From the human T2T-CHM13v2.0 reference genome, Homo sapiens: a stretch of 64,000 bases of DNA. Each line of letters begins with the position of its first letter. The first letter of the stretch is position 1. Under the pieces are notes generated by a model, which saw only the letters and a program-made list of their open reading frames with translations, ran no database searches and had not been told where the DNA came from. This document shows positions 5,100 through 29,900 of the stretch, piece after piece. The DNA lies in NCBI GenBank assembly GCA_009914755.4, contig CP068257.2, positions 14,400,001 to 14,464,000 on the forward strand, read 5' to 3'. Made by a program: the position numbers and the translations under genes.

Positions 5100-7275
5100 A
5101 ACAAAAATATGTTGATAAAGACTCAAATCTAAAACCTCAATCTATGAAACTACTACAAGAAAACATTGGGGAAAATCTCCAGGGCATTGGTCTGGGCAAA
5201 GATTTCTTGAGCAATACCCCACAAACACAGACAACCAAAGCAAAAATGGACAAACAGGATTACATCAAGTTTAAAAGCTTTTGCACAGCAAAGAAAACAA
5301 TCAACAAACTGAAGAGACAACCTACAGAGTGGGATAAAATATTTGCAAGTTGCCCATCTAGCAAAGGACTAATGACCAGAACATATAAGGAGCTCAAACA
5401 ACTCTATAGGAAAAAATCTAAAAATTCAATCAAAAAGTGGACAAAAAATTTGAACAGACATTTCTCAAAAGAAGACATACAAATGGCAAACAGGCGTATG
5501 AAAAGGTGCTCAACATCATTGATAATCAGAGAAATGCAAATCAGTACTACAATGAGACATTATCTCACCCCGTTAATATGGCTAATATCCAAAAGGCAAC
5601 AACAAATGCTAATATCCAAAAGGCAATAACAAACGCTATTATCCAAAAGGTAATAACAAACGCTTATATCCAAAAGGCAATAACAAACGCTAATATCCAA
5701 AAGGCAATAACAAACGCTAATATCCAAAAGGTAATAACAAACGCTTATACCCAAAAGGCAATAACAAACGCTAATATCCAAAAGGCAATAACAAACGCTA
5801 ATATCCAAAAGGTAATAACAAAAGCTTATATCCAAAAGGCAATTACAAACGCTAATATCCAAAAGGCAGTAACAAACGCTTATATCCAAAAGGCAATAAC
5901 AAATGCTAATATCCAAAAGGCAATAACAAACGCTTATATCCAAAAGGCAGTAACAAACGCTTATATCCAAAAGGCAATAACAAATGCTAATATCCAAAAG
6001 GTAATAACAAACGCTTATATCCAAAAGGCAATAACAAACGCTAATATCCAAAAGGCAACAACAAACGCTTATATCCAAAAGGCAATAACAAACGCTAATA
6101 TCCAAAAGGTAATAACAAACACTTATATCCAAAAGGCAGTAACAAACGCTAATATCCAAAAGGCAATAACAAACGCTTATATCCAAAAGGCAATAACAAA
6201 CGCTTATATCCAAAAGGCAGTAACAAATGCCTGTATCCAAAAGGTAATAACAAATGCTTATATTCAAAAGGCAATAACAAACGCTTATATCCAAAAGGCA
6301 ATAACAAACGCTTGTATCCAAAAGGCAATAACACATGCTTATATCCAAAAGACAATAACAAACGCTTATATCCAAAAGGCAATAACAAATGCCTGTATCC
6401 AAAAGGTAATAACAAACGCTTATATCCAAAAGGTAATAACAAATACTTGTGAGGATGTGGAGGAAAGAAAACCTTTGTACACTGTTGGTGAGAATGTAAA
6501 TTAGTACAACCACTATTGAGAAGAGTTTGGAGGTTCCTCAACAAATCTAAAAATTGAGCTACCATATAATTCAGCAATCCCACTGCTGGGTATATATCCA
6601 AAAGAAAGGAAATCAGTATATCGAAGAGACACTGTACTCCTACATTTGTTGCAGCACTGTTTACAATAGCTAAGATTTGGAGGCAACCTAAGTGTCCATC
6701 AACCGATACATGGATAAAAAAAATGTGGTACATATACACAGTGGAGTACTATTTAGCCATAAAAAAGAATGAGATCCAGTCATTTGCAACAATAACATGG
6801 ATGGAACTGGAGATCATTATGTTAAGTAAAAAAAGCCAGGCATAGAAAGACAAACATTGCATGTTCTCACTTATTTATGGGATCTAAAAAAGCAATTGAA
6901 TTCATGGACATAGAGAGTAGAAGGATGGTTACCAAAGGGTGGCAAAGCTACTGGGGGTTGGTATAGTTAATAGCTACAGAAAAGAAGTACTTAGAAAGAA
7001 TGAATAAGGCCTACTATTTGATAGCATAATAGGTTGACGATAGTCAATTACGACTTAATTTTACATTTTATAATAACTTAAAGACTAAAATTGGATTGTT
7101 CTTAACTCAAAGAATAAATGCTTGTGGGATGTATTATTACCCCAATGCTATTATTACCATTTTCCATGATGTGCTTATTTCACATTCCATACCTGTATCA
7201 AACATCTCATGTACCCTATAAACATATACATCTACTCTGTACCCACAAAAATTTAAAAAATATGTATTGAAAAAA
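5100..7275 (+). mobile_element. L1 LINE 3' fragment (ORF2 C-terminal region plus 3' UTR), older primate subfamily, interrupted by the minisatellite
   Basis: ORF 5144-5629 translates to ...KLLQENIGENL...KFKSFCTAKKTINKLKRQPTEWDKIFA...[35 protein letters not shown], which is recognisable L1 ORF2. Downstream, ggaggttcctcaacaaatctaaaaattgagctaccatataattcagcaatcccactgctgggtatatatccaaaagaa...aatgtggtacatatacacagtggagtactatttagccataaaaaagaatgag matches the L1 ORF2 end. The 3' UTR-like tail ends near acccacaaaaatttaaaaaatatg. Confidence 0.85.
5578..6447. repeat. 27-bp minisatellite (VNTR-type), ~32 copies, unit gctaatatccaaaaggcaataacaaac with a/t and g/c variants
   Basis: Period counted directly. 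aatatcc recurs at 5584, 5611 and so on, which is 27 bp. The unit derives from the L1 ORF2 codons that flank it on both sides. Because 27 is a multiple of 3, the array creates long stop-free frames on both strands: 5437-6504 +, 5560-6513 - and 6149-6739 -. Confidence 0.95.
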
Positions 7276-14639: not shown

Positions 14640-15225
14640 TTTTTTTAAAGTTTATATTAGATTGTAACATATATACAGTAGACAAAATCTTAAATGTGCA
14701 TCTTGATAAAAACTCACACATGTACACACTTGTGTAACTGCCACCCAGATTCAGATATAAAATCTGGGTTTCCTGAACCCAAAAGATTCTCTTGTGCTCC
14801 TTTTTAGTTAACATTCTTTTTCCCAACCAAGGAAACACTATTCTGACCTCTATCACTATACAGGAGTTATACTTGTTCTTAACTGTCATATAAATGGAAT
14901 CATATGGTATATATAGTTTTGTGATTGACTCCTTCGGCTCAACATTTGTGTTGTTTAACATGGAAATAGTTCACCCATTTTTATTATGTGTGCAATTATT
15001 TTGCCCATTCTATCATTGATGCACTTTTGGGCTATTTCCCAAATATTCTTATGCATGTCTTTTGGTAGAAATACCGTTCTGTTTTGCTTGACTGTATACC
15101 TTGAGGTGGAATTATTGGATCACTGGGCGTATATATATTCAGATTTATTTGATCTTGGCAAAGAGTGGGTGTACCAATTTATAGCCAAATTAGCAAAGTA
15201 CAAGAGGCTTGATTGATTCACTTTA
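14640..15225 (-). mobile_element. L1 3'-end fragment (ORF2 C-terminus and 3' UTR), antisense
   Basis: ctgtcatataaatggaatcatatggtatatatagttttgtgattgactcc...gcccattctatcattgatgcacttttgggctatttccc...cttttggtagaaataccgttctgttttgcttgactgtataccttgaggtggaattattggatcactgggcgtatatatattcag parallels the reverse complement of L1 ...gttgatggacatttgggttgtttcca...taaatacctaggagtggaattgctgggtcatatggtaa. Confidence 0.75.
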
Positions 15226-15424
15226 TTGAAAACACTTGATATTGTCACGGGCTTCCTGGGTTGTTGCTTTGCCAGCCAGACACCTCTGCGGCTGGTGGCA
15301 CCTTTGCCCAAATTTTGCTTGAGCCCACTGGACTCATTCTGCCCACTTAGCCTGGTAGGCTGTGCTTGGCTTTCGCTATTGGCCGAGATTCCATGTCTGC
15401 CAAGGGCGAGCCAGGCACAGAGAA

Positions 15425-15477
15425 GTGAGTGAGTGAGTACATGAGTACATGAGTGAGTACATGAGTGAGTGAGTGAA
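15425..15477. repeat. imperfect (gagtgagtacat)n / (gagt)n microsatellite
   Basis: gagtgagtgagtgagtacatgagtacatgagtgagtacatgagtgagtgagtgaatg. Confidence 0.9.
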
Positions 15478-15939
15478 TGCAGGGTCCAGCCACTACATTC
15501 AGCTAGGCATGTGAGCTGCTGTGGGGTGGGCAGCACCAGGCGCTGGCATGGGCTCTGGTTCCCTGCTGCAGCTGGACCAGGTGTACTGCAAGAGGCTTCC
15601 ACTGCAGGCACCAGGGAACATGGTAGCACCTGGAAGCTTGGAGACAGCAGGAACCACAGAGCCCCAAATAGGGTGATATAGCCCTGGCTCAGGGACCTCC
15701 TAAGTCTGGGATCCCTGAAAGGCCTCAACTCTTCCCTTTCCTCTCCTTCTCATCACCTGTAACATGGCAAGTGAGGGGCATGTTTCAGCCCTGCTTGTGT
15801 TACAGCCTTTTCAGTCCTGCCATTTGGTGGATCCTGAGTTCTTGTCCTACATCCTGGAAGAATGAGGTACACAGACAACTGGAGGGTGAACAAGGCAAAG
15901 ATGTGCTTTATTCGAGCAACAGTACAGCTCTCAGGAGAT

Positions 15940-16190
15940 CCAAAGTGGGTATCTCCTTTCCACAGGCAGGTTGGCCTGATGAGTGCAGCCCTCAGTGGAG
16001 AGGAGACCCAGAATGGGTAGCTCCTATCTGCGCTCAGGTTATCCTGACATCTCTCCAGCCCTCAGTGGAGAGGAGACCTGGAGTGGGTGGCTCCTATCCC
16101 TAGGCAGGTTGTTCCAACGTCTCTGCAGCCCTCAACAGAGAGGAAACCTGGACTGGGTAGCTCCTATCTGCAGGCAGGCCATCCCATTGT
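15940..16190. repeat. ~70-bp tandem repeat, ~3.5 copies
   Basis: cagccctcagtggagaggagacc recurs at ~15987, ~16058 and ~16126 (as cagccctcaacagagaggaaacc), each followed by ggtagctcctatc.gc.caggtt. The three overlapping ORFs in the track (15771-16103, 15983-16198, 16087-16332) have near-identical peptides because of this repeat. Confidence 0.85.
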
Positions 16191-17073
16191 TTGCCTGAGT
16201 CTGGCTGAGTCCAGAGTTTTTATGGGCTTCAGAGGGGAGGAAGTGCATGTTGATTGGTTCATGGGTGGCCATGGGCACACCTGGAGAAAGCACCGTAAGT
16301 TTCCACTCTGGTCTGTGGAACCGGCAGCTTAGCCCCCAGGCTTCAGGCCATCTCTGGCGTGAAGGTGGGGTTTTAATGGGGATCTTCCTGTTTCTGCCCA
16401 GGAACCTGTCTGCCTCCTGCTACCATTCATGATGCCCAGGCTGTTTGTGCCCTCGCCAAGTTGCCCTAAGCCCCACCTCGGCCTCCTTCCCATGCTCCTC
16501 AGTGCCCAAAGTTCAGAGGAGGCCTAGGGGGCTGGGTGCTGGCATGTCAGTACCGCCCTAAGCGTGTACACGCCTGGCTGGGTCATGACAGTGCCCAGGT
16601 TTGGCCACAACTTTGCTCTGAAATCAGAGTGGGTGCCAGGAGTGGGGAGATGCCAGGCAGTGGGAGCAGGCACTTCCAAGCCTGCAGGGGCAGGGGGGCT
16701 TCCTGGGCCCCAGAAGCACAGGATGCCTAGGTCTGAAGCCGTGGTTATGTGGCTGCAGCCGTGCCCAGGTGGGCGGGCTCTCACCACACCAACTTGGGGG
16801 AGAAACTCCCACCTGTTCCCAGCTCCCACCAGCTCTGCTCGAGCACGCGGCCCCAGCCGTGCCTTTCCCCGCTGCAGCCAGCATCTTTGCAGCAGCAGCT
16901 TCATATGGGCCACTGCTGCTATCAGTAATGTTAATCTTCTGAATTTTTGCAATTTTGTTAGCTATGTAGTCGTATCTAATTGTAGCTTAAATTTTTATAT
17001 CCTTGGTGAATTGCTTATTTCTATTTCCCATTTTTAACTGGGTTGCCTACATTTTTTCTTTACTTATTTGTAG

Positions 17074-23962: not shown

Positions 23963-25819
23963 GGGGGAGAGAGGAATGAGGTCTACATAATTTAATTTTA
24001 TTACTAGTACATTTTTATGGTTAATTCAAATATTTAGGCAAATTTGCCTTTAATAGGAAAATCATCAAAAAGGCAAGGCAAGTAGTTGCATAAGCTTTGC
24101 TTTTTTCTGAAATTACCTGCATTCACTTAGAGAAAAAAGGATTTTACATTATCTATCAAGCAACTAATTTACATATATGATTTCAGGTATTTCAATTTCA
24201 ATGTGTGTAGCAGTTCAGGAATAAAAATGCAGTATTTTCTTATATTATTTGTGTTTTTTATGATTGAGCCGTACGATCTTTTGGTTTAGTTAGGAATTTG
24301 GCTTCCCCATCCCTCCTATTAAAACTTGATTTTTGGAAAGTATAGATAGAAGAGCTGTGCTTTTCTTTTAAAATGCTTATAAAATTCAAAAGCAACTGGA
24401 ATACATTTTATGATACCAATTTTACATATATTTAAAAACCAGGACTACAAAATATAAATTTATAAAAAATTATAAAAAATGATTGGGATTCTTTCTCTTT
24501 GGAATGATTATATGTTATAAACATACAGCACCGTGAGTATAAATAGGTTACTGTTTCTCCTAATGTGCCTACTTTAATGATGAATTGCATTCCTGATTAC
24601 AGAATCATGAGCTATCAAAATACACCAATAAATACAGGCAAACATTGGTAAAATTCCGACTTAGAAAATAATCAAAGCTTAAAGCTTAGCATTCTGATTT
24701 GGAGCAAGAAATATGTAAATTGTGAAATAATGAGCAGCTTCTGAGCACATCCCCTTTATTTTACCTGCAAGGACCTGAGTCAGAAGTCTGCATTTCAAAA
24801 TGCTTCTTTTTTTTTACAGTGTGGATGAATGGCCACGAATAATACAAATTGGCTTTACTTTCCAAGTTTATTATACTTAAACATTTGTTGGCAGGTTAGC
24901 GACATCATTTATTATATAATGAGGTAAACCCCAAATGGAACCCCCAAACATCTTCTCTTCCTGGTCATCATAGGCTGCCATTCTTCCCCTAGAAATTAAT
25001 ACATCTGTATGCGGGATCGTGCCTTCTCATCCCCTGCTGCAGAATCCTCGGTCATAACAGCTTTTGTGTTCATGAATATGTAAATGTAACATGCATAAAA
25101 TAAAATAAAAAAGCAGACAGTTTCTACCACAGACTGCCTAACTCTGTTGAACTAATACACAAAAAGCGAAGATTTAATTTTTCAAGCATTTTGAGTCAGT
25201 GTTTCAAGGCATGACATAATTATGTAATATAAAAATACATAAATTAGGCATATGCAGATGTGCATGACAGTTAGACTCAAAATAAATCGGCATGTAGTCA
25301 TGGCTATAGTGATTCATGCAGATTCACTTACTCCTTCACTCTGATGCCTAGTAATACGGGGTAAATGCCTTAGGTATTTAATGACCTTGTATTTACTGAC
25401 TAGATTCTACTCCTATACTTCACCCCAATAAATGACTAGGAAAATGTTTAATTAATATGTATTATTTGTATATGTATGTATATATATGTATTATACACAC
25501 ACATATGCTTTTTTCTTTTGAAGGGGAAAAGCGATGGCTATCTTCCACTGAAGTATTCTGGAGGAAGCTGTGGGAAGAAAATTGGTGGATTTTATTATTG
25601 AAATAAGCAGGCATGTTCATGCATATTTTTACGGCATGCATGGCTATGCGCCACTCTGTGCAAACAGTGCTATTGCAGCTTGTGCGCGGTAATTAGGTTG
25701 ATGTAATTATGGTGAAATAAAGGCAGTCGCACTGATAATTTCACAGTGAATATTAAAGACATATGTGCCTTCCAGTGTACAATGAATGAACCTGAACTGC
25801 TGTCAGGGTCTAGGAGGAC

Positions 25820-25945
25820 AGTGTGGCCAATGCACCTATTGTGTCCCTGCTGCAGAAAGGAGCCTGCCGATTGGCCACTGTCTGCAGCACATAGCACTGG
25901 CTGGTTATAAAGGACTTGTCTAGGGGAGAGCCTGTAGGTACTCCA
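25820..25945 (+). promoter_or_regulatory. candidate core promoter, plus strand. CCAAT box (25827-25831), inverted CCAAT (ATTGG, 25870-25874) and TATA box TATAAAGG (25906-25913), with a predicted TSS about 25-30 bp downstream
   Basis: gtgtggCCAATgcacc, gccgATTGGccact and ctggtTATAAAGGacttg appear in order with ~40-bp spacing, the textbook NF-Y/TATA arrangement. The module lies in a repeat-free, CpG-retaining block with TAATTA motifs nearby (ggtaattaggttgatgtaattatgg, 25689-25713). There is no expression evidence, so this is inference. Confidence 0.3.
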
Positions 25946-26291
25946 TTGTCTGGTAAAGTTCATATGACTGCATTCTTTTTGCAAGGGGGGTGGAGGGAGA
26001 GCGGGGAAGGAGGGGGTGTCAGCTCAACTGTAAAAGCTGCACAGATTTTTTTTCTTTCTCTCTCTCTGCCTCTCCATAGATTGTTTCTGTTTCATGCCCT
26101 GTCTCATTTCGCATAGCTAAAAAAGAATGCTAATTAAGATCCCTTGTCTTAACCTGAAAAATAATGACTCGGCTGTAATTAGAAATCTGGTGAGAGTTTA
26201 AAAATTCTGGTAGGGGACCAAAAACATCAGTTACGGTGCTTAGGAAGAAAATGAAGAATTATTTTTCTGAAATCAAGGTAAACATGGGAGA

Positions 26292-26335
26292 GGGGGGTTC
26301 CCCCCATCTTTTTAACCAATTTTAACCAATGGTGT
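26292..26335. promoter_or_regulatory. palindromic kappaB-like site GGGGGGTTCCCCCC (26292-26305) followed by two CCAAT boxes (26316-26320, 26326-26330)
   Basis: aggggggttccccccatctttttaaCCAATtttaaCCAATggtg. GGGGTTCCCC fits the kappaB consensus GGGRNWYYCC. Chance occurrence cannot be excluded. Confidence 0.2.
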
Positions 26336-26721
26336 TCTACTGCAGATGAGAAGATACTGTATTTCAAAAACTATTTTAACCATCAAATTGAAGGAACACA
26401 AATCAGTAGCAATAGAAGCCTTCTTAATCCTCCTTAGGATGCAATTCAGATGAAAGAACTGCTTTTTCTATTTTTCTTTTTGTGTGTGTGTGTTATAGAT
26501 GGATCTGAGAACGCTGTCTGGGCTTGGTACCAAGAGCTGGTATTTCACAGCAGCGACCGCCTCACAGACGAGCTGTGGGAAGCAGGAGGGAGACTCTCTC
26601 TTAGGGTGCCACTACTATGGAGACACAGCTGGGCTGAACAAGATTTGCTTCAAACGACAACAAGAGAGACAGAAAGTATCTGGTTCAACCGCTGCCCGAG
26701 CAGGCAGGCACCAGAAGAGCT

Positions 26722-26790
26722 AGCAGCCAATCCGGCCATGCTCGAAGCCAGCTCTGCAGCTCAGCCAATCAGTGACATCATTGGTGAGAA
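26722..26790. promoter_or_regulatory. pair of canonical NF-Y Y-boxes (agCCAATcc at 26727-26731 and agCCAATcag at 26765-26769) plus ATTGG (26780-26784), running into a gtgag donor-like site
   Basis: tagcagccaatccggccatgctcgaagccagctctgcagctcagccaatcagtgacatcattggtgagaa. agccaatcag is the strongest form of the NF-Y site. CpGs are retained here (tccggcc, ctcgaag). Confidence 0.25.
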
Positions 26791-26848
26791 ACTCATTTAC
26801 ATCATGCAGTAATGAACTTTGTTTAACATAGACTTCCCCCTTTCCTGT

Positions 26849-26970: not shown

Positions 26971-29900
26971 TTGGTGTCTGCCGTCACTGAAAGTGATTCT
27001 GGGTACAATTCTATTTTGTTTTGAACTTGCAAAAATTATCTTCTCTTTCTTAAAAAAAATTCTTAACAACATTAAACCTCTGTTTATATTGTCTGATCCC
27101 TCTTCTTATGAATGAATACATGCTTCTCCAAGTTGGGGTTCAGAATTGTACAAGGCAACAGAGAATAAGGTGTGCATTGCCATGGAAGTTGCAGGTTTTT
27201 CAAACAATCTGTATCTTAGAACTTCCTTTAACGTTTCCAGATTTTATGCTGCAGTGGCCATTTTACATACAGTGCTTTATCCAAAAAGCACTTGTATGCA
27301 TCTGTCACATGGAGGAAAGTTCACTCTTGTTATATTTCATTCTCCACTGCTCTCAGCCAACATTGTCATTTTATTAATGAATAGAACTGAGGTCATTTCT
27401 GGACAAATCTCCCCCTTCCCATCCCAGCACAATGCACCTGATTTGCATCCATTTACTAGAAAAAATGAATACAAGAACCAGCTTGAAAAGAAGTTAAGGG
27501 ACCAGCTTACGTATTATTTCAGAATATATTGCAGTAATACAGTTTGTTTTTTTAAAATGTGTAATATTTAACATTTGCCTTAGTGTTTCTATAAAAATGC
27601 CTGCTATCCATTTGCAATGTAATACCTTTAGCAAATTTATAGGATTGTTACATAACCAAAGTAGATCAAATTAAATAACGTTCACAAATGAGTTCATTTA
27701 TCTGCAGAAAACCTGTGGAAATACAATTTTGCCTTGCACATTTGTATTTAGTTGTCAGGGATAAAGTCATTTTTTCTATAGATAACTTAAAGAGGCTGGA
27801 ACATGTGGCATGTGAAGATTTCAGGTTGCTTTATAAAATCCCAGAGAGCAAAACTGGGTCACACTTCAATGCAATTTCTATTAAGTCATATCTTTATTGC
27901 ATATTTGCGTTAAAGGCGCACAGTTTTCTAGCAGAGAAGGTGAAGTTTCATTGTCTTTCTTTTAAAAGGATGTTTTGAATATAATTATTCAAAAACATGG
28001 AATTTTAAAAATATTGACAAGGGTTTCATAATAGTGCATGATTCATTTAAGAAGCTTAGAGAATGCAATGATAGGCATAGTCACTTTTTAAAGCATATGA
28101 AGGATTTAGATGGGAAACCATGGCCCTTTTAATTCATGAGGCATTCCATCATCCCATCATCAGTATTCAGGGGGCGACTGTCCTGAATCAGTCACGAGCT
28201 CCCCTGCTGCAGATCCTGTAATTTGAATCATGTGTAATAATATATTATCCTACTGGGGGCCTTCTTTCAGTAGGAGAATGGTTTATACATTCTGCTGTAA
28301 GAGAACTTTTGGCTTCTAGCCGACTCACAGCTATTACTCACATAGGCAATCACGATCGTCTTCCTTAAGGAATAACATCTGCACAACCTCCAGAGCCAAA
28401 AATCTGCAACCTCCCGCACAGTATGAATTATGATTTCTTGGAATTGGGAACACTTGACAAACTGAAGTAGAAAAATGGAAGGTTTAAAGGAATGGATCAA
28501 CATTTTATTGAGTGTGCCATGTGGCGACAGCGCAAACTCCCATTCCTTTGAAATGATGGAGAATGGTGAGGAAAGGGGGCCAAAAATATACCTACATGTG
28601 TTCATTTGATTTTTAGACACAGCCGAAATGTAATGTGTTTTATGAAGACGTGGCTGCCTCTGTGTTTTTCTGTGGACATCCTAGCAAGGTCCTGTAAAGG
28701 GCGTAGCAACGTGGAGAAATAAATGGGGGGCGAAGGTGGTCGTGAAAGCAGAGAAATTGTCTCCCCTCGAGAAGGAAGCAATGTAATGTAGCAGGAACCA
28801 TTTTGACCCCGGAGTTAAAAATTATAGTGTACCTCCGACTCTTTCTCTTGTTATCACCTTGATCAGATCACTTAATTTCTTTCCATTTTCTCCTGCATTC
28901 AAAAATTCAAGACAATGCCAGCATAGAGATTTTCTCTTTGTGTGAAATGCCTTCCCATTTTTTAAGAGTCTAGATCCTTTTTTGCTTCAAGGACCAAGTT
29001 AAATGTCTCCTCTTCTGTGAAATCTCTCCAAATCATCACGACCAGAATCTCTCACTTCTCCACCCCTTTTCATCTCCTTTATTGCCTGTGTGCCAGTCAG
29101 TATTGCTGTAGGGCCACATGTGTGTACGTCTTTGCCACTAGACTGAAAGCCCCTTGGGGACAGAGACCACATTGAATTCTTCCACCCCCAGCTCTAAGAA
29201 TAATGAATGATGCTCCTAAGGTTCAAATCCATGTTTTAATTAATGAATTATAAGTACATTATAAATTGCAGAGGGAGGGTCATACAAATTCTGGGGATTA
29301 CAATTATTGTTGTCAACTATTACCACTATGTACCAGTTGATGTCAGCTTTACCTCATCAATGTTAAGCCTTTTATTTCACTGGCCCTTCATAATAAATCT
29401 CAGATTAAATGGTCCTTGTATTATTTTTCTTAAATAGCCAGTCATAAGGAAATGCAAATCATTTTGTTTATTAAATATAAAATTGAGCCAACTTAGTTGG
29501 TGTTTAAAAACTTAAAAATAGGTGAAATTTATGTAGATTCAAGCAACCATGATAAGCAAATTACAGTATCCAGCTCTACTGTTCATGATATGAAAAATTA
29601 CTTGGAAAAGGTAAGCAGTTAACATGGAATGTTGAAATGCTTTACAAAGCATAATAAATCAGGAAATATAGAATCCCATGTCAGCGTTATAATTAATGTA
29701 TGTATTTTTAATCTGTAAACTAGTACAATAATCTTGAGTGATTTCTAGATGTTTTTGATATAATCTGATAACATAATGCCAAAGCATGATTGATTTTATG
29801 TTAGTTATCTATTTAAGTTTATACTTTTGGTTATTATACTACTGCTAAGAGGAAATTAATGTTTTGGCAAAAATGATATTTTTGTTAATGTTTGAAAATC

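What the first reader, a model, noticed from the sequence alone, without database searches (positions are those of the whole stretch)
25820..25945. Textbook CCAAT / inverted-CCAAT / TATA promoter module on the plus strand
ggCCAATgc (25827), ccgATTGGcc (25870) and TATAAAGG (25906) occur in that order with ~40-bp spacing. This is the NF-Y plus TATA architecture of many RNA polymerase II core promoters. A G-rich stretch lies just downstream (gggggggtggagggagagcggggaaggagggggtg, 25986-26020). The predicted TSS at ~25935-25945 would transcribe rightwards into the CCAAT/kappaB/poly-C region. No annotated gene can be recognised from the sequence, so this may be the promoter of a lncRNA or an unannotated alternative first exon.
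Basis: partly seen in the sequence, partly recalled or inferred. Interest (0 to 1): 0.6.

Follow-up and report, generated by a model that had tools for sequence, protein, structure and literature searches.

The report
Conserved TATA/CCAAT module inside MIR99AHG
The three promoter-like boxes are real and sit in the most deeply conserved part of an intron of the known human microRNA host gene MIR99AHG on chromosome 21, so they are most likely an internal promoter of that gene, which is ordinary and probably already described.

Summary
As a motif combination they are not above chance (3 such modules in the window, 5.4 expected).

What singles this module out is conservation. It is the core of a 1.25-kb non-coding block (25580-26830). 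That block is 92-99% identical among placental mammals. The interval 25820-25945 is 91% identical, without indels, between human and two sauropsid (reptile or bird) sequences.

[quoted passage not shown] Window 26499-26785 is one of its exons.

Some transcripts come from further upstream and splice across the module. Pig models instead use an exon ending at an invariant donor (26277/26278), about 340 nt downstream of the TATA box. That fits an alternative first exon.

Published work reports three 5'RACE-mapped starts in this gene. The HOX and PBX site distances given for "TSS2" fit a start near 25931-25936, but only loosely.

No start site could be demonstrated here. Conservation is blanket rather than box-specific, and the first CCAAT is CCAGT in sauropsids.

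Verdict: a probable internal TATA-type promoter of a known gene, of low novelty.

The parts
25580..26830 (+). Deeply conserved non-coding block that contains the finding, a short intron and a MIR99AHG exon
   Evidence: blastn of 13 orthologous contigs. Five non-primate mammal-like contigs are 0.92-0.99 identical per 100 nt over 25600-26800, against a background of about 0.7-0.8. The two sauropsid contigs, L001 and L018, align over this block (25580-26830 for L001), plus a few short islands at 24944-25115, 27251-27537 and 28115-28521.
25827..25831 (+). CCAAT box 1 (GTGGCCAATGC)
   Evidence: Identical in all mammal-like orthologues. Reads CCAGT in both sauropsids. The 3' flank does not fit RRCCAATSR.
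25870..25874 (-). Inverted CCAAT box 2. The minus strand reads GTGGCCAATCGG, which fits the NF-Y consensus RRCCAATSR
   Evidence: the consensus match starts at 25868. Invariant in all eight sequences, sauropsids included.
25906..25913 (+). TATA box TATAAAGG
   Evidence: Invariant in all eight sequences.
25931..25945 (+). Predicted transcription start zone, 25-39 nt downstream of the TATA box. TCCATT at 25942-25947 resembles an initiator
   Evidence: Inference from TATA geometry only. The published TSS2 site distances (-18, +192, +866) fit a start at 25931-25936 at +/-8 nt tolerance, and 3% of all window positions fit equally well.
25986..26020 (+). G-rich stretch, mammal-specific
   Evidence: Deleted in both sauropsid orthologues, with 21 of 35 positions gapped.
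26044..26079 (+). Long polypyrimidine tract ending in AG. This is a possible 3' splice acceptor, so the downstream exon could be internal rather than first
   Evidence: Sequence. The AG is conserved in mammals, shifted in L018 and absent in L001. No evidence that it is used.
26131..26136 (.). TAATTA homeodomain site in GCTAATTAAGATCCC, about +195 from the predicted start
   Evidence: Conserved in mammals and sauropsids. Candidate for the '+192 HOX site' of PMC4003278.
26251..26277 (+). 3' end of an exon. ATGAAGAATTATTTTTCTGAAATCAAG encodes MKNYFSEIK and is followed by the donor GTAAAC at 26278
   Evidence: Pig Gnomon isoforms X1 and X3 (P0055 and P0054) begin MKNYFSVIK|MDLRT, which is this sequence joined to 26499. 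TGTAATCAAGGTAAACA is an invariant island in sauropsids, where the flanks are only about 66% identical.
26278..26498 (+). Short intron.
   Evidence: The junctions are defined by the pig models. The segment 26285-26340 is 48-59% identical with large indels in sauropsids.
26499..26785 (+). MIR99AHG (C21orf34) exon, non-coding
   Evidence: Matches human 'C21orf34 isoform CRA_c' (P0072) at 100% over 94 residues. The spliced RNA contig L016 matches exactly 26499-26783. Gnomon models from more than ten species are spliced at both ends of it. Frameshifting 2-bp and 8-bp indels between species show it is not coding.
26786..26830 (+). Donor and 45 nt of intron, 98% identical between human and sauropsid. 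Contains the PBX-like TACATCATGCAG at about +866
25690..25709 (.). Pair of TAATTA homeodomain motifs upstream of the module
   Evidence: Sequence. Conserved in mammals and sauropsids.

Best explanation
The module is a CpG-poor, TATA-type internal (alternative) RNA polymerase II promoter of the microRNA host gene MIR99AHG (LINC00478, C21orf34, MONC) on human chromosome 21. It is embedded in an amniote-conserved regulatory block.

Proposed mechanism:
- TBP/TFIID binds TATAAAG at 25906.
- NF-Y binds the inverted CCAAT at 25870, and in mammals also the CCAAT at 25827.
- Transcription starts near 25931-25945 and runs rightwards through an alternative first exon that ends at the conserved donor 26277/26278.
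- That exon is spliced to the shared exon 26499-26785 and onwards. The same primary transcript would carry the downstream intronic miR-99a/let-7c/miR-125b-2 cluster.
- Conserved homeodomain and PBX-like sites around it (25690-25709, 26131-26136, 26176-26181, about 26800) would give tissue- or HOX-dependent control.

Shown here: the gene identity, the exon/intron structure downstream, the use of the donor, and the conservation.

Inferred: the start site itself, factor binding, and identity with the published TSS2.
For: Gene context:
- The exon 26499-26785 is 100% identical to human C21orf34 isoform CRA_c.
- The orangutan gene model and the RNA contig L016 join this exon to exons of the published MONC/MIR99AHG transcript.

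Exon downstream of the TATA box:
- Pig isoforms X1 and X3 start MKNYFSVIK|MDLRT. This equals window 26251-26277 spliced at CAAG|GTAAAC to 26499.
- That donor is an invariant island even in sauropsids.

Conservation:
- The interval 25820-25945 is 98-100% identical in placentals.
- It is 91.3% identical, without indels, between human and two sauropsid lineages. That equals the conservation of the exon (92.6%).
- TATAAAG and the inverted CCAAT are invariant.
- A control motif module at 24516 is not conserved.

Literature:
- MIR99AHG has three 5'RACE-confirmed start sites. The TSS2 promoter is the most active and has HOX sites at -18 and +192 and a PBX site at +866 (PMC4003278). A start at 25931-25936 reproduces these positions at +/-8 nt.
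- Intronic microRNA promoters are typically CpG-poor, narrow and TATA-enriched (PMC4053815). This matches CpG observed/expected of 0.2-0.36 here.
Against: - No transcript 5' end was observed at 25931-25945.
- The RNA contig L016 and most gene models enter the exon at 26499 from upstream exons that lie outside the window, so for them the module is intronic.
- The exon ending at 26277 could instead be an internal exon that begins at the strong acceptor at 26079/26080.
- Conservation is blanket, not box-specific (p = 0.46).
- CCAAT box 1 is CCAGT in sauropsids.
- The motif combination is at chance frequency.
- The TSS2 match holds only at +/-8 nt, and 3% of all window positions match equally well. 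The -18 site is only the edge of the TATA region.
- The TSS2 coordinates and primers are in supplements that could not be read.
Confidence: 0.55

Rival explanations
1. The block is a conserved non-coding element that acts on DNA as a developmental enhancer or similar regulatory module of the MIR99AHG/miRNA locus or a neighbouring gene. The CCAAT, ATTGG and TATAAA strings are incidental parts of a densely constrained sequence, and no transcript starts there.
For: - Conservation is uniform across 25740-25985 rather than concentrated on the boxes (1 of 17 against 16 of 109 variable columns).
- One box is lost in sauropsids.
- The motif trio is at chance frequency.
- Multiple conserved TAATTA homeodomain motifs flank it.
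- Several further amniote-conserved islands lie nearby at 24944-25115, 27251-27537 and 28115-28521, as in clusters of conserved non-coding elements.
- All transcripts with known 5' parts splice over it.
Against: - The TATA box and the NF-Y-consensus CCAAT are invariant over roughly 300 million years, in the canonical order and spacing.
- A used, invariant splice donor lies 340 nt downstream on the same strand.
- The gene is documented to have internal start sites.
Confidence: 0.3
2. The block is intronic RNA-level information for the adjacent conserved exons, either splicing-regulatory sequence or a structured RNA. This would resemble the conserved intron flanks of ultraconserved alternative exons.
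For: - It lies 220-700 nt upstream of a very conserved exon.
- A strong polypyrimidine/AG acceptor is at 26044-26079.
- The 45 nt after the exon's donor are 98% conserved.
- The 9-nt inverted repeat GTGGCCAAT/ATTGGCCAC would tolerate the sauropsid A-to-G change as a G-U pair on the + strand.
Against: - RNAalifold found none of 68 pairs with compensatory change, and the covariation term was +0.31.
- The single-sequence fold has z = -1.5.
- Rfam gave no hit at gathering score, only weak sub-threshold miRNA-like hits in the G-rich/pyrimidine region.
- The best-conserved core is more than 500 nt from the acceptor at 26499.
Confidence: 0.08
3. A chance co-occurrence of short motifs with no function of its own.
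For: Three such modules are observed in the window against 5.4 expected in shuffles.
Against: The interval is 91% identical between human and sauropsids without indels, and 98-100% identical among placentals. Local background is about 70-80%. The comparable module at 24516 is not conserved.
Confidence: 0.03

Closest known systems
Internal start sites of MIR99AHG/LINC00478 (TSS1-3 of the hsa21 miR-99a~125b-2 tricistron; Emmrich et al. 2014, Genes Dev, PMC4003278)
   Same: Same gene and same strand. The region is conserved across species and has HOX/PBX-type sites downstream of the start. The reported distances for TSS2 (-18, +192, +866) can be laid onto a start at 25931-25936.
   Different: Identity is not shown. 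The paper's coordinates, RACE products and primers are in supplements that are not available. The fit needs +/-8 nt of tolerance, and the -18 site is not a clean HOX core.
CpG-poor, narrow, TATA-type intronic microRNA promoters (PROmiRNA analysis, PMC4053815)
   Same: It lies in an intron of a microRNA host gene, is CpG-depleted (observed/expected 0.2-0.36) and has a consensus TATA box.
   Different: That paper reports intronic promoters as less conserved than host-gene promoters, whereas this one is exceptionally conserved. The microRNAs are not in the window, so the distance to them is unknown but is more than 37 kb.
Canonical NF-Y/TATA promoters with CCAAT boxes at about -60 to -100 (general knowledge)
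   Same: The order and spacing of CCAAT, inverted CCAAT and TATA fit. Box 2 fits RRCCAATSR.
   Different: No mapped start and no NF-Y occupancy data. Box 1 lacks the 3' flank consensus and is not conserved outside mammals.
Conserved non-genic / ultraconserved-like elements in vertebrate gene deserts (general knowledge; chromosome 21 conserved non-genic sequences)
   Same: More than 500 bp at 93-99% identity among placentals and more than 90% to sauropsids. It is non-coding, is flanked by homeodomain motifs and sits in a cluster of similar islands.
   Different: It sits immediately upstream of, and is contiguous with, exons of a spliced non-coding RNA, and it carries a canonical core-promoter arrangement. 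The strict definition (200 bp or more, 100% identical in human, mouse and rat) was not tested.

Membership tests
TATA/NF-Y RNA polymerase II core promoter | Consensus TATA box (TATAWAWR) | tested here: met
   TATAAAGG at 25906-25913. Invariant in 8 of 8 species sequences.
TATA/NF-Y RNA polymerase II core promoter | CCAAT box or boxes with NF-Y flanks (RRCCAATSR), about 60-100 nt upstream of the start | tested here: inconclusive
   Box 2 (25868-25876, minus strand) fits the consensus and is invariant. Box 1 does not fit the 3' flank and is CCAGT in sauropsids. Distances are relative to a predicted start, not a measured one.
TATA/NF-Y RNA polymerase II core promoter | A transcription start mapped 25-35 nt downstream of the TATA box | not testable with these tools
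   No CAGE or RACE data were available. The RNA contig L016 and most gene models enter from upstream exons. The third protein search, using the + strand ORF 25895-26113, gave only two unnamed genomic hits.
TATA/NF-Y RNA polymerase II core promoter | Transcribed exon downstream on the same strand | tested here: met
   Pig isoforms X1 and X3 contain window 26251-26277 spliced at 26277/26278 to 26499. The 5' limit of that exon is unknown.
TATA/NF-Y RNA polymerase II core promoter | Boxes more conserved than the spacers between them | tested here: not met
   1 of 17 box columns is variable against 16 of 109 non-box columns, Fisher p = 0.46.
TATA/NF-Y RNA polymerase II core promoter | TBP, NF-Y and Pol II occupancy, and promoter activity in a reporter | not testable with these tools
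   Requires ChIP-seq or experiments.
MIR99AHG (LINC00478/C21orf34/MONC) locus | Contains sequence of a human C21orf34/MIR99AHG exon | tested here: met
   P0072 'chromosome 21 open reading frame 34, isoform CRA_c [Homo sapiens]' matches window 26501-26782 at 100% over 94 residues.
MIR99AHG (LINC00478/C21orf34/MONC) locus | The exon is spliced to exons of the published MONC transcript ENST00000445461 | tested here: met
   Orangutan model P0023 residues 150-196 match MONC nt 241-381 at 89% (E = 3e-28). RNA contig L016 matches MONC nt 241-481 at 83-87%.
MIR99AHG TSS2 promoter (Emmrich 2014) | HOX sites at -18 and +192 and a PBX site at +866 relative to the start | tested here: inconclusive
   Satisfied for a start at 25931-25936 only at +/-8 nt tolerance. 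The background is 2.9-3.1% of window positions.
Conserved non-coding element (ultraconserved-like) | Long stretch of at least 95% identity among placental mammals and conservation beyond mammals | tested here: met
   0.95-0.99 identity over 25700-26200 in five non-primate contigs. 91-94% identity to two sauropsids over 25820-25985.
Conserved non-coding element (ultraconserved-like) | No protein-coding constraint | tested here: met
   Frameshifting indels between species in and around the block. The open frames differ between species. No Pfam domains are recorded for any hit.
Conserved non-coding element (ultraconserved-like) | Strict definition: at least 200 bp at 100% identity in human, mouse and rat | not tested
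   The species of the Logan contigs are unknown, and no rodent sequence was identified.

The most novel reading that the evidence does not exclude
The 165-bp core (25820-25985) is as conserved between human and sauropsids as the neighbouring exon (91-94%, no indels), which is far more than a TATA/CCAAT promoter needs. It could therefore be a dual-function element. One possibility is an ancient HOX-responsive promoter-enhancer. Another is a 5' leader with an RNA-level role that governs expression of the let-7c/miR-99a/miR-125b-2 cluster independently of the distal host-gene promoter, maintained since the amniote ancestor.
Probability: 0.12. Interest if true: 0.5.

Novelty: already known. Interest (0 to 1): 0.22.

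Why it matters
[quoted passage not shown] Knowing which internal promoter drives the cluster in which tissue is therefore useful.

If this module is the HOXA10-responsive TSS2, the finding only rediscovers it. If it is a further start site, it adds one more alternative promoter to a gene already known to have several.

The near-ultraconservation of the promoter-like core across amniotes is notable. It is not surprising, however, for a locus that hosts microRNA families regarded as among the oldest in animals (general knowledge, not tested here).

Tried and rejected
- **Rfam.** No family reached gathering score in the window. Relaxed thresholds gave only weak miRNA-like hits at 25983-26078 in the low-complexity G-rich/pyrimidine region. 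Rejected.
- **RNA structure of 25790-25985.** No compensatory pairs were found, and z = -1.5. Rejected for lack of signal, although there is little sequence variation to test with.
- **Protein coding.** The minus-strand ORF 25673-25984 and the plus-strand ORF 26450-26812 are open in many species. They carry frameshifting indels and their extents differ between species. Rejected.
- **LTR or transposon origin of the boxes.** The block is single-copy, is orthologous in sauropsids, and had no repeat-family-like multiplicity of hits (16 and 22 hits, all orthologues). Rejected.
- **Donor at 26190 (CTG|GTGAGA).** It is not conserved in other mammals. Rejected as the exon end.
- **Exon 25787-25951.** The GT at 25953-25954 is GC in sauropsids, and no transcript supports it. 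Set aside.
- **Literature searches.** Searches with sequence strings and with the LOC gene identifiers found nothing. MIR99AHG qPCR primers from PMC10559167 do not lie in the window or in L016. By eye, the forward primer occurs exactly in the published MONC sequence and the reverse primer nearly so.
- **Sources for TSS2 coordinates.** Supplements of PMC4003278 are not held. PMC9883498, PMC8675481 and PMC9036120 gave no usable sequence.
- **Profile search of 1.84 billion representative proteins for more distant orthologues.** Besides P0016, which was already known, it returned only a repetitive spurious hit (P0039) and a frame-shifted genomic ORF (P0040).
- **Contig L017.** It starts too close to the exon to cover the finding.

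Full report
**Observation.** CCAAT is at 25827, ATTGG at 25870 (as CGATTGGCC) and TATAAAGG at 25906, with spacings of 43 and 36 bp. The G-rich run follows at 25986-26020.

As a bare motif combination this is not unusual. The window has 53 CCAAT, 69 ATTGG and 64 TATAAA. Two or more CCAAT boxes in either orientation within 120 nt upstream of a TATAAA occurs three times. Dinucleotide-preserving shuffles give 5.4 +/- 2.4. The region is not a CpG island, with observed/expected of 0.2-0.36.

**What kind of DNA this is.** Alu-derived and L1-derived ORFs show that the window is primate DNA. Rfam finds nothing at gathering score.

To obtain orthologues I translated a spurious minus-strand ORF (25673-25984) that spans the finding and searched the large protein collection. 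Sixteen "proteins" from Logan and ENA assemblies matched at 89-96% identity, and one matched at 68%. Their contigs (L001-L015) are collinear genomic orthologues.
- Two contigs are about 94.6% identical to the window over 7.6 kb and look primate.
- The others are 76-85% identical over 4.5-10 kb (the shorter contigs L009, L010 and L015 at 81-87%).
- The most distant, L001, aligns mainly over 25580-26284 and 26320-26830, plus a short island at 24944-25115.

One scan of JGI metagenome contigs added a second distant lineage, L018/L019. L001 and L018 are only 79% identical to each other in flanking sequence. Both carry the 8-bp insertion that gives the "SGHAALFETSS" reading also seen in the gecko and snake gene models. 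They are therefore two different sauropsids.

**Conservation.** Among five non-primate mammal-like contigs, identity per 100 nt rises from a background of about 0.7-0.8 to 0.92-0.99 across 25600-26800. The maxima are at 25900-26000 and 26600-26800.

The finding interval 25820-25945 is 98-100% identical in placentals. It is 91.3% identical, with no indel, in both sauropsids. The next 40 nt are 94% identical. These values equal those of the neighbouring exon, at 92.6%.

TATAAAG and the inverted CCAAT are invariant in all eight sequences. The inverted box, read on the minus strand as GGCCAATCG, fits the NF-Y consensus RRCCAATSR. The first CCAAT is CCAGT in both sauropsids, and the G-rich run is deleted there.

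The conservation does not pick out the boxes. One of 17 box columns varies against 16 of 109 other columns (Fisher p = 0.46). A control module at 24516 is not conserved at all.

**The gene.** The plus-strand ORF 26450-26812 led to many NCBI Gnomon models named "uncharacterized protein LOC...". They come from orangutan, mouse lemur, seals, a bat, sheep, pig, lynx, naked mole-rat, a gecko and a snake. The multi-exon Gnomon models share window 26499-26785 as an exon with splice junctions at its two ends, joined to various other exons; the ab-initio lynx model reads through the donor at 26785/26786.

A Logan RNA contig, L016, is spliced. Only its nt 662-946 match the window, at 26499-26783. Its 661 upstream nt and about 950 downstream nt lie outside the window.

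The exon is not coding, because species differ by 2-bp and 8-bp indels within it.

Three results fix the identity.
- A cluster member is human "chromosome 21 open reading frame 34, isoform CRA_c". It is 100% identical to window 26501-26782 over 94 residues.
- The published MONC/MIR99AHG transcript ENST00000445461 (Additional file 3 of PMC4118279) matches the C-terminal exons of the orangutan model (89%, E = 3e-28).
- The same transcript matches the 3' exons of L016 at 83-87%.

**Is the module a promoter?** For the transcripts that come from further upstream it is intronic, 550-680 nt before the acceptor at 26499.

Two pig isoforms, X1 and X3, begin MKNYFSVIK|MDLRT. This is window 26251-26277 joined to 26499 through the donor CAAG|GTAAAC at 26277/26278. 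That donor is an invariant 17-nt island in sauropsids, whose flanks are only about 66% identical.

Its 5' end is not visible from the protein models. It could start near 25936 as an alternative first exon. It could also start at the strong polypyrimidine/AG acceptor at 26079/26080 as an internal exon.

The literature shows that this gene has three 5'RACE-confirmed start sites. The promoter at TSS2 is the most active, responds to HOXA10, and has conserved HOX sites at -18 and +192 and a PBX site at +866 (PMC4003278). A start at 25931-25936 would place:
- +192 at the conserved GCTAATTAAG (TAATTA at 26131-26136);
- +866 at TACATCATGCAG (26799-26810);
- -18 at the 3' edge of the TATA region.

This fit needs +/-8 nt of tolerance, and 3% of all window positions fit equally well. 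The paper's supplements are not available. I treat this as a lead only.

Intronic microRNA promoters in general are CpG-poor, narrow and TATA-rich (PMC4053815), which agrees with the sequence here.

**Alternatives.** The main rival is that the block is a DNA-level regulatory element in which the boxes are incidental. Four points favour it: the blanket conservation, the flanking TAATTA motifs, the further amniote-conserved islands at 24944-25115, 27251-27537 and 28115-28521, and the lack of any observed 5' end.

An RNA-structure or splicing role has no support. There is no covariation, the fold z-score is -1.5, and Rfam gives no hit. Pure chance is excluded by the conservation.

**Verdict.** I put about 0.55 on an internal TATA-type promoter of MIR99AHG, possibly the published TSS2. 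I put about 0.3 on a conserved enhancer-like element without a start site, and the remainder on other roles.

Either way the element belongs to known categories in a known, annotated gene with documented alternative promoters. Novelty is low, and the interest lies mainly in the unusually deep conservation of the core.

Noticed in passing
window 27240-27614: A second conserved block (0.91-0.92 identity in mammals, 78% to sauropsid L018 over 27251-27537). It is used as a terminal coding exon in the mouse-lemur isoform X1 (P0042, 93% over 76 residues) and in a raccoon-dog model (P0058). It is therefore another alternative MIR99AHG exon.
   Followed up: partly
window 28115-28521: Another amniote-conserved island: 83% identical to sauropsid L018 and 0.99 identical among mammals at 28200-28300. 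No transcript or motif analysis was done.
   Followed up: no
window 42396-42508 and 50053-50100: Further MIR99AHG exons used in other species. The pinniped and bat models end in 42396-42508, which is preceded by tttcccttTAG. A Cercocebus isoform X3 C-terminus maps to 50053-50100.
   Followed up: partly
window 26780: The ATTGG at 26780 inside the exon is specific to the human sequence. All other sequences, including the primate-like L005, have ACTGG. The two CCAAT boxes at 26727 and 26765 in the exon are conserved in all species, together with a CRE-like TGACATCA.
   Followed up: partly
window 5581-6443: A 27-bp tandem repeat of 32 copies at 90% match (GCTTATATCCAAAAGGCAATAACAAAC), lying inside or next to L1-derived sequence. 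It creates long spurious ORFs on both strands.
   Followed up: no
window 15200-16900: A GC-rich insertion (0.50-0.57 GC) with 70-bp tandem repeats at 15967-16186, apparently inserted into L1 sequence. It looks like a primate LTR or retro-element rather than a CpG-island promoter.
   Followed up: no
window 25980-25981: The human sequence has one T fewer in the T-run than every other mammal sampled. This is why the spurious minus-strand ORF is shorter in human.
   Followed up: yes
protein P0039 (716 aa, from the representative library): A tandem-repeat 'protein' with eight copies of an approximately 86-residue unit weakly resembles the translated core (LCAA...NRC.G). The summed E-value is 4e-17. 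It is probably an artefact of repetition. Its origin is unknown.
   Followed up: no
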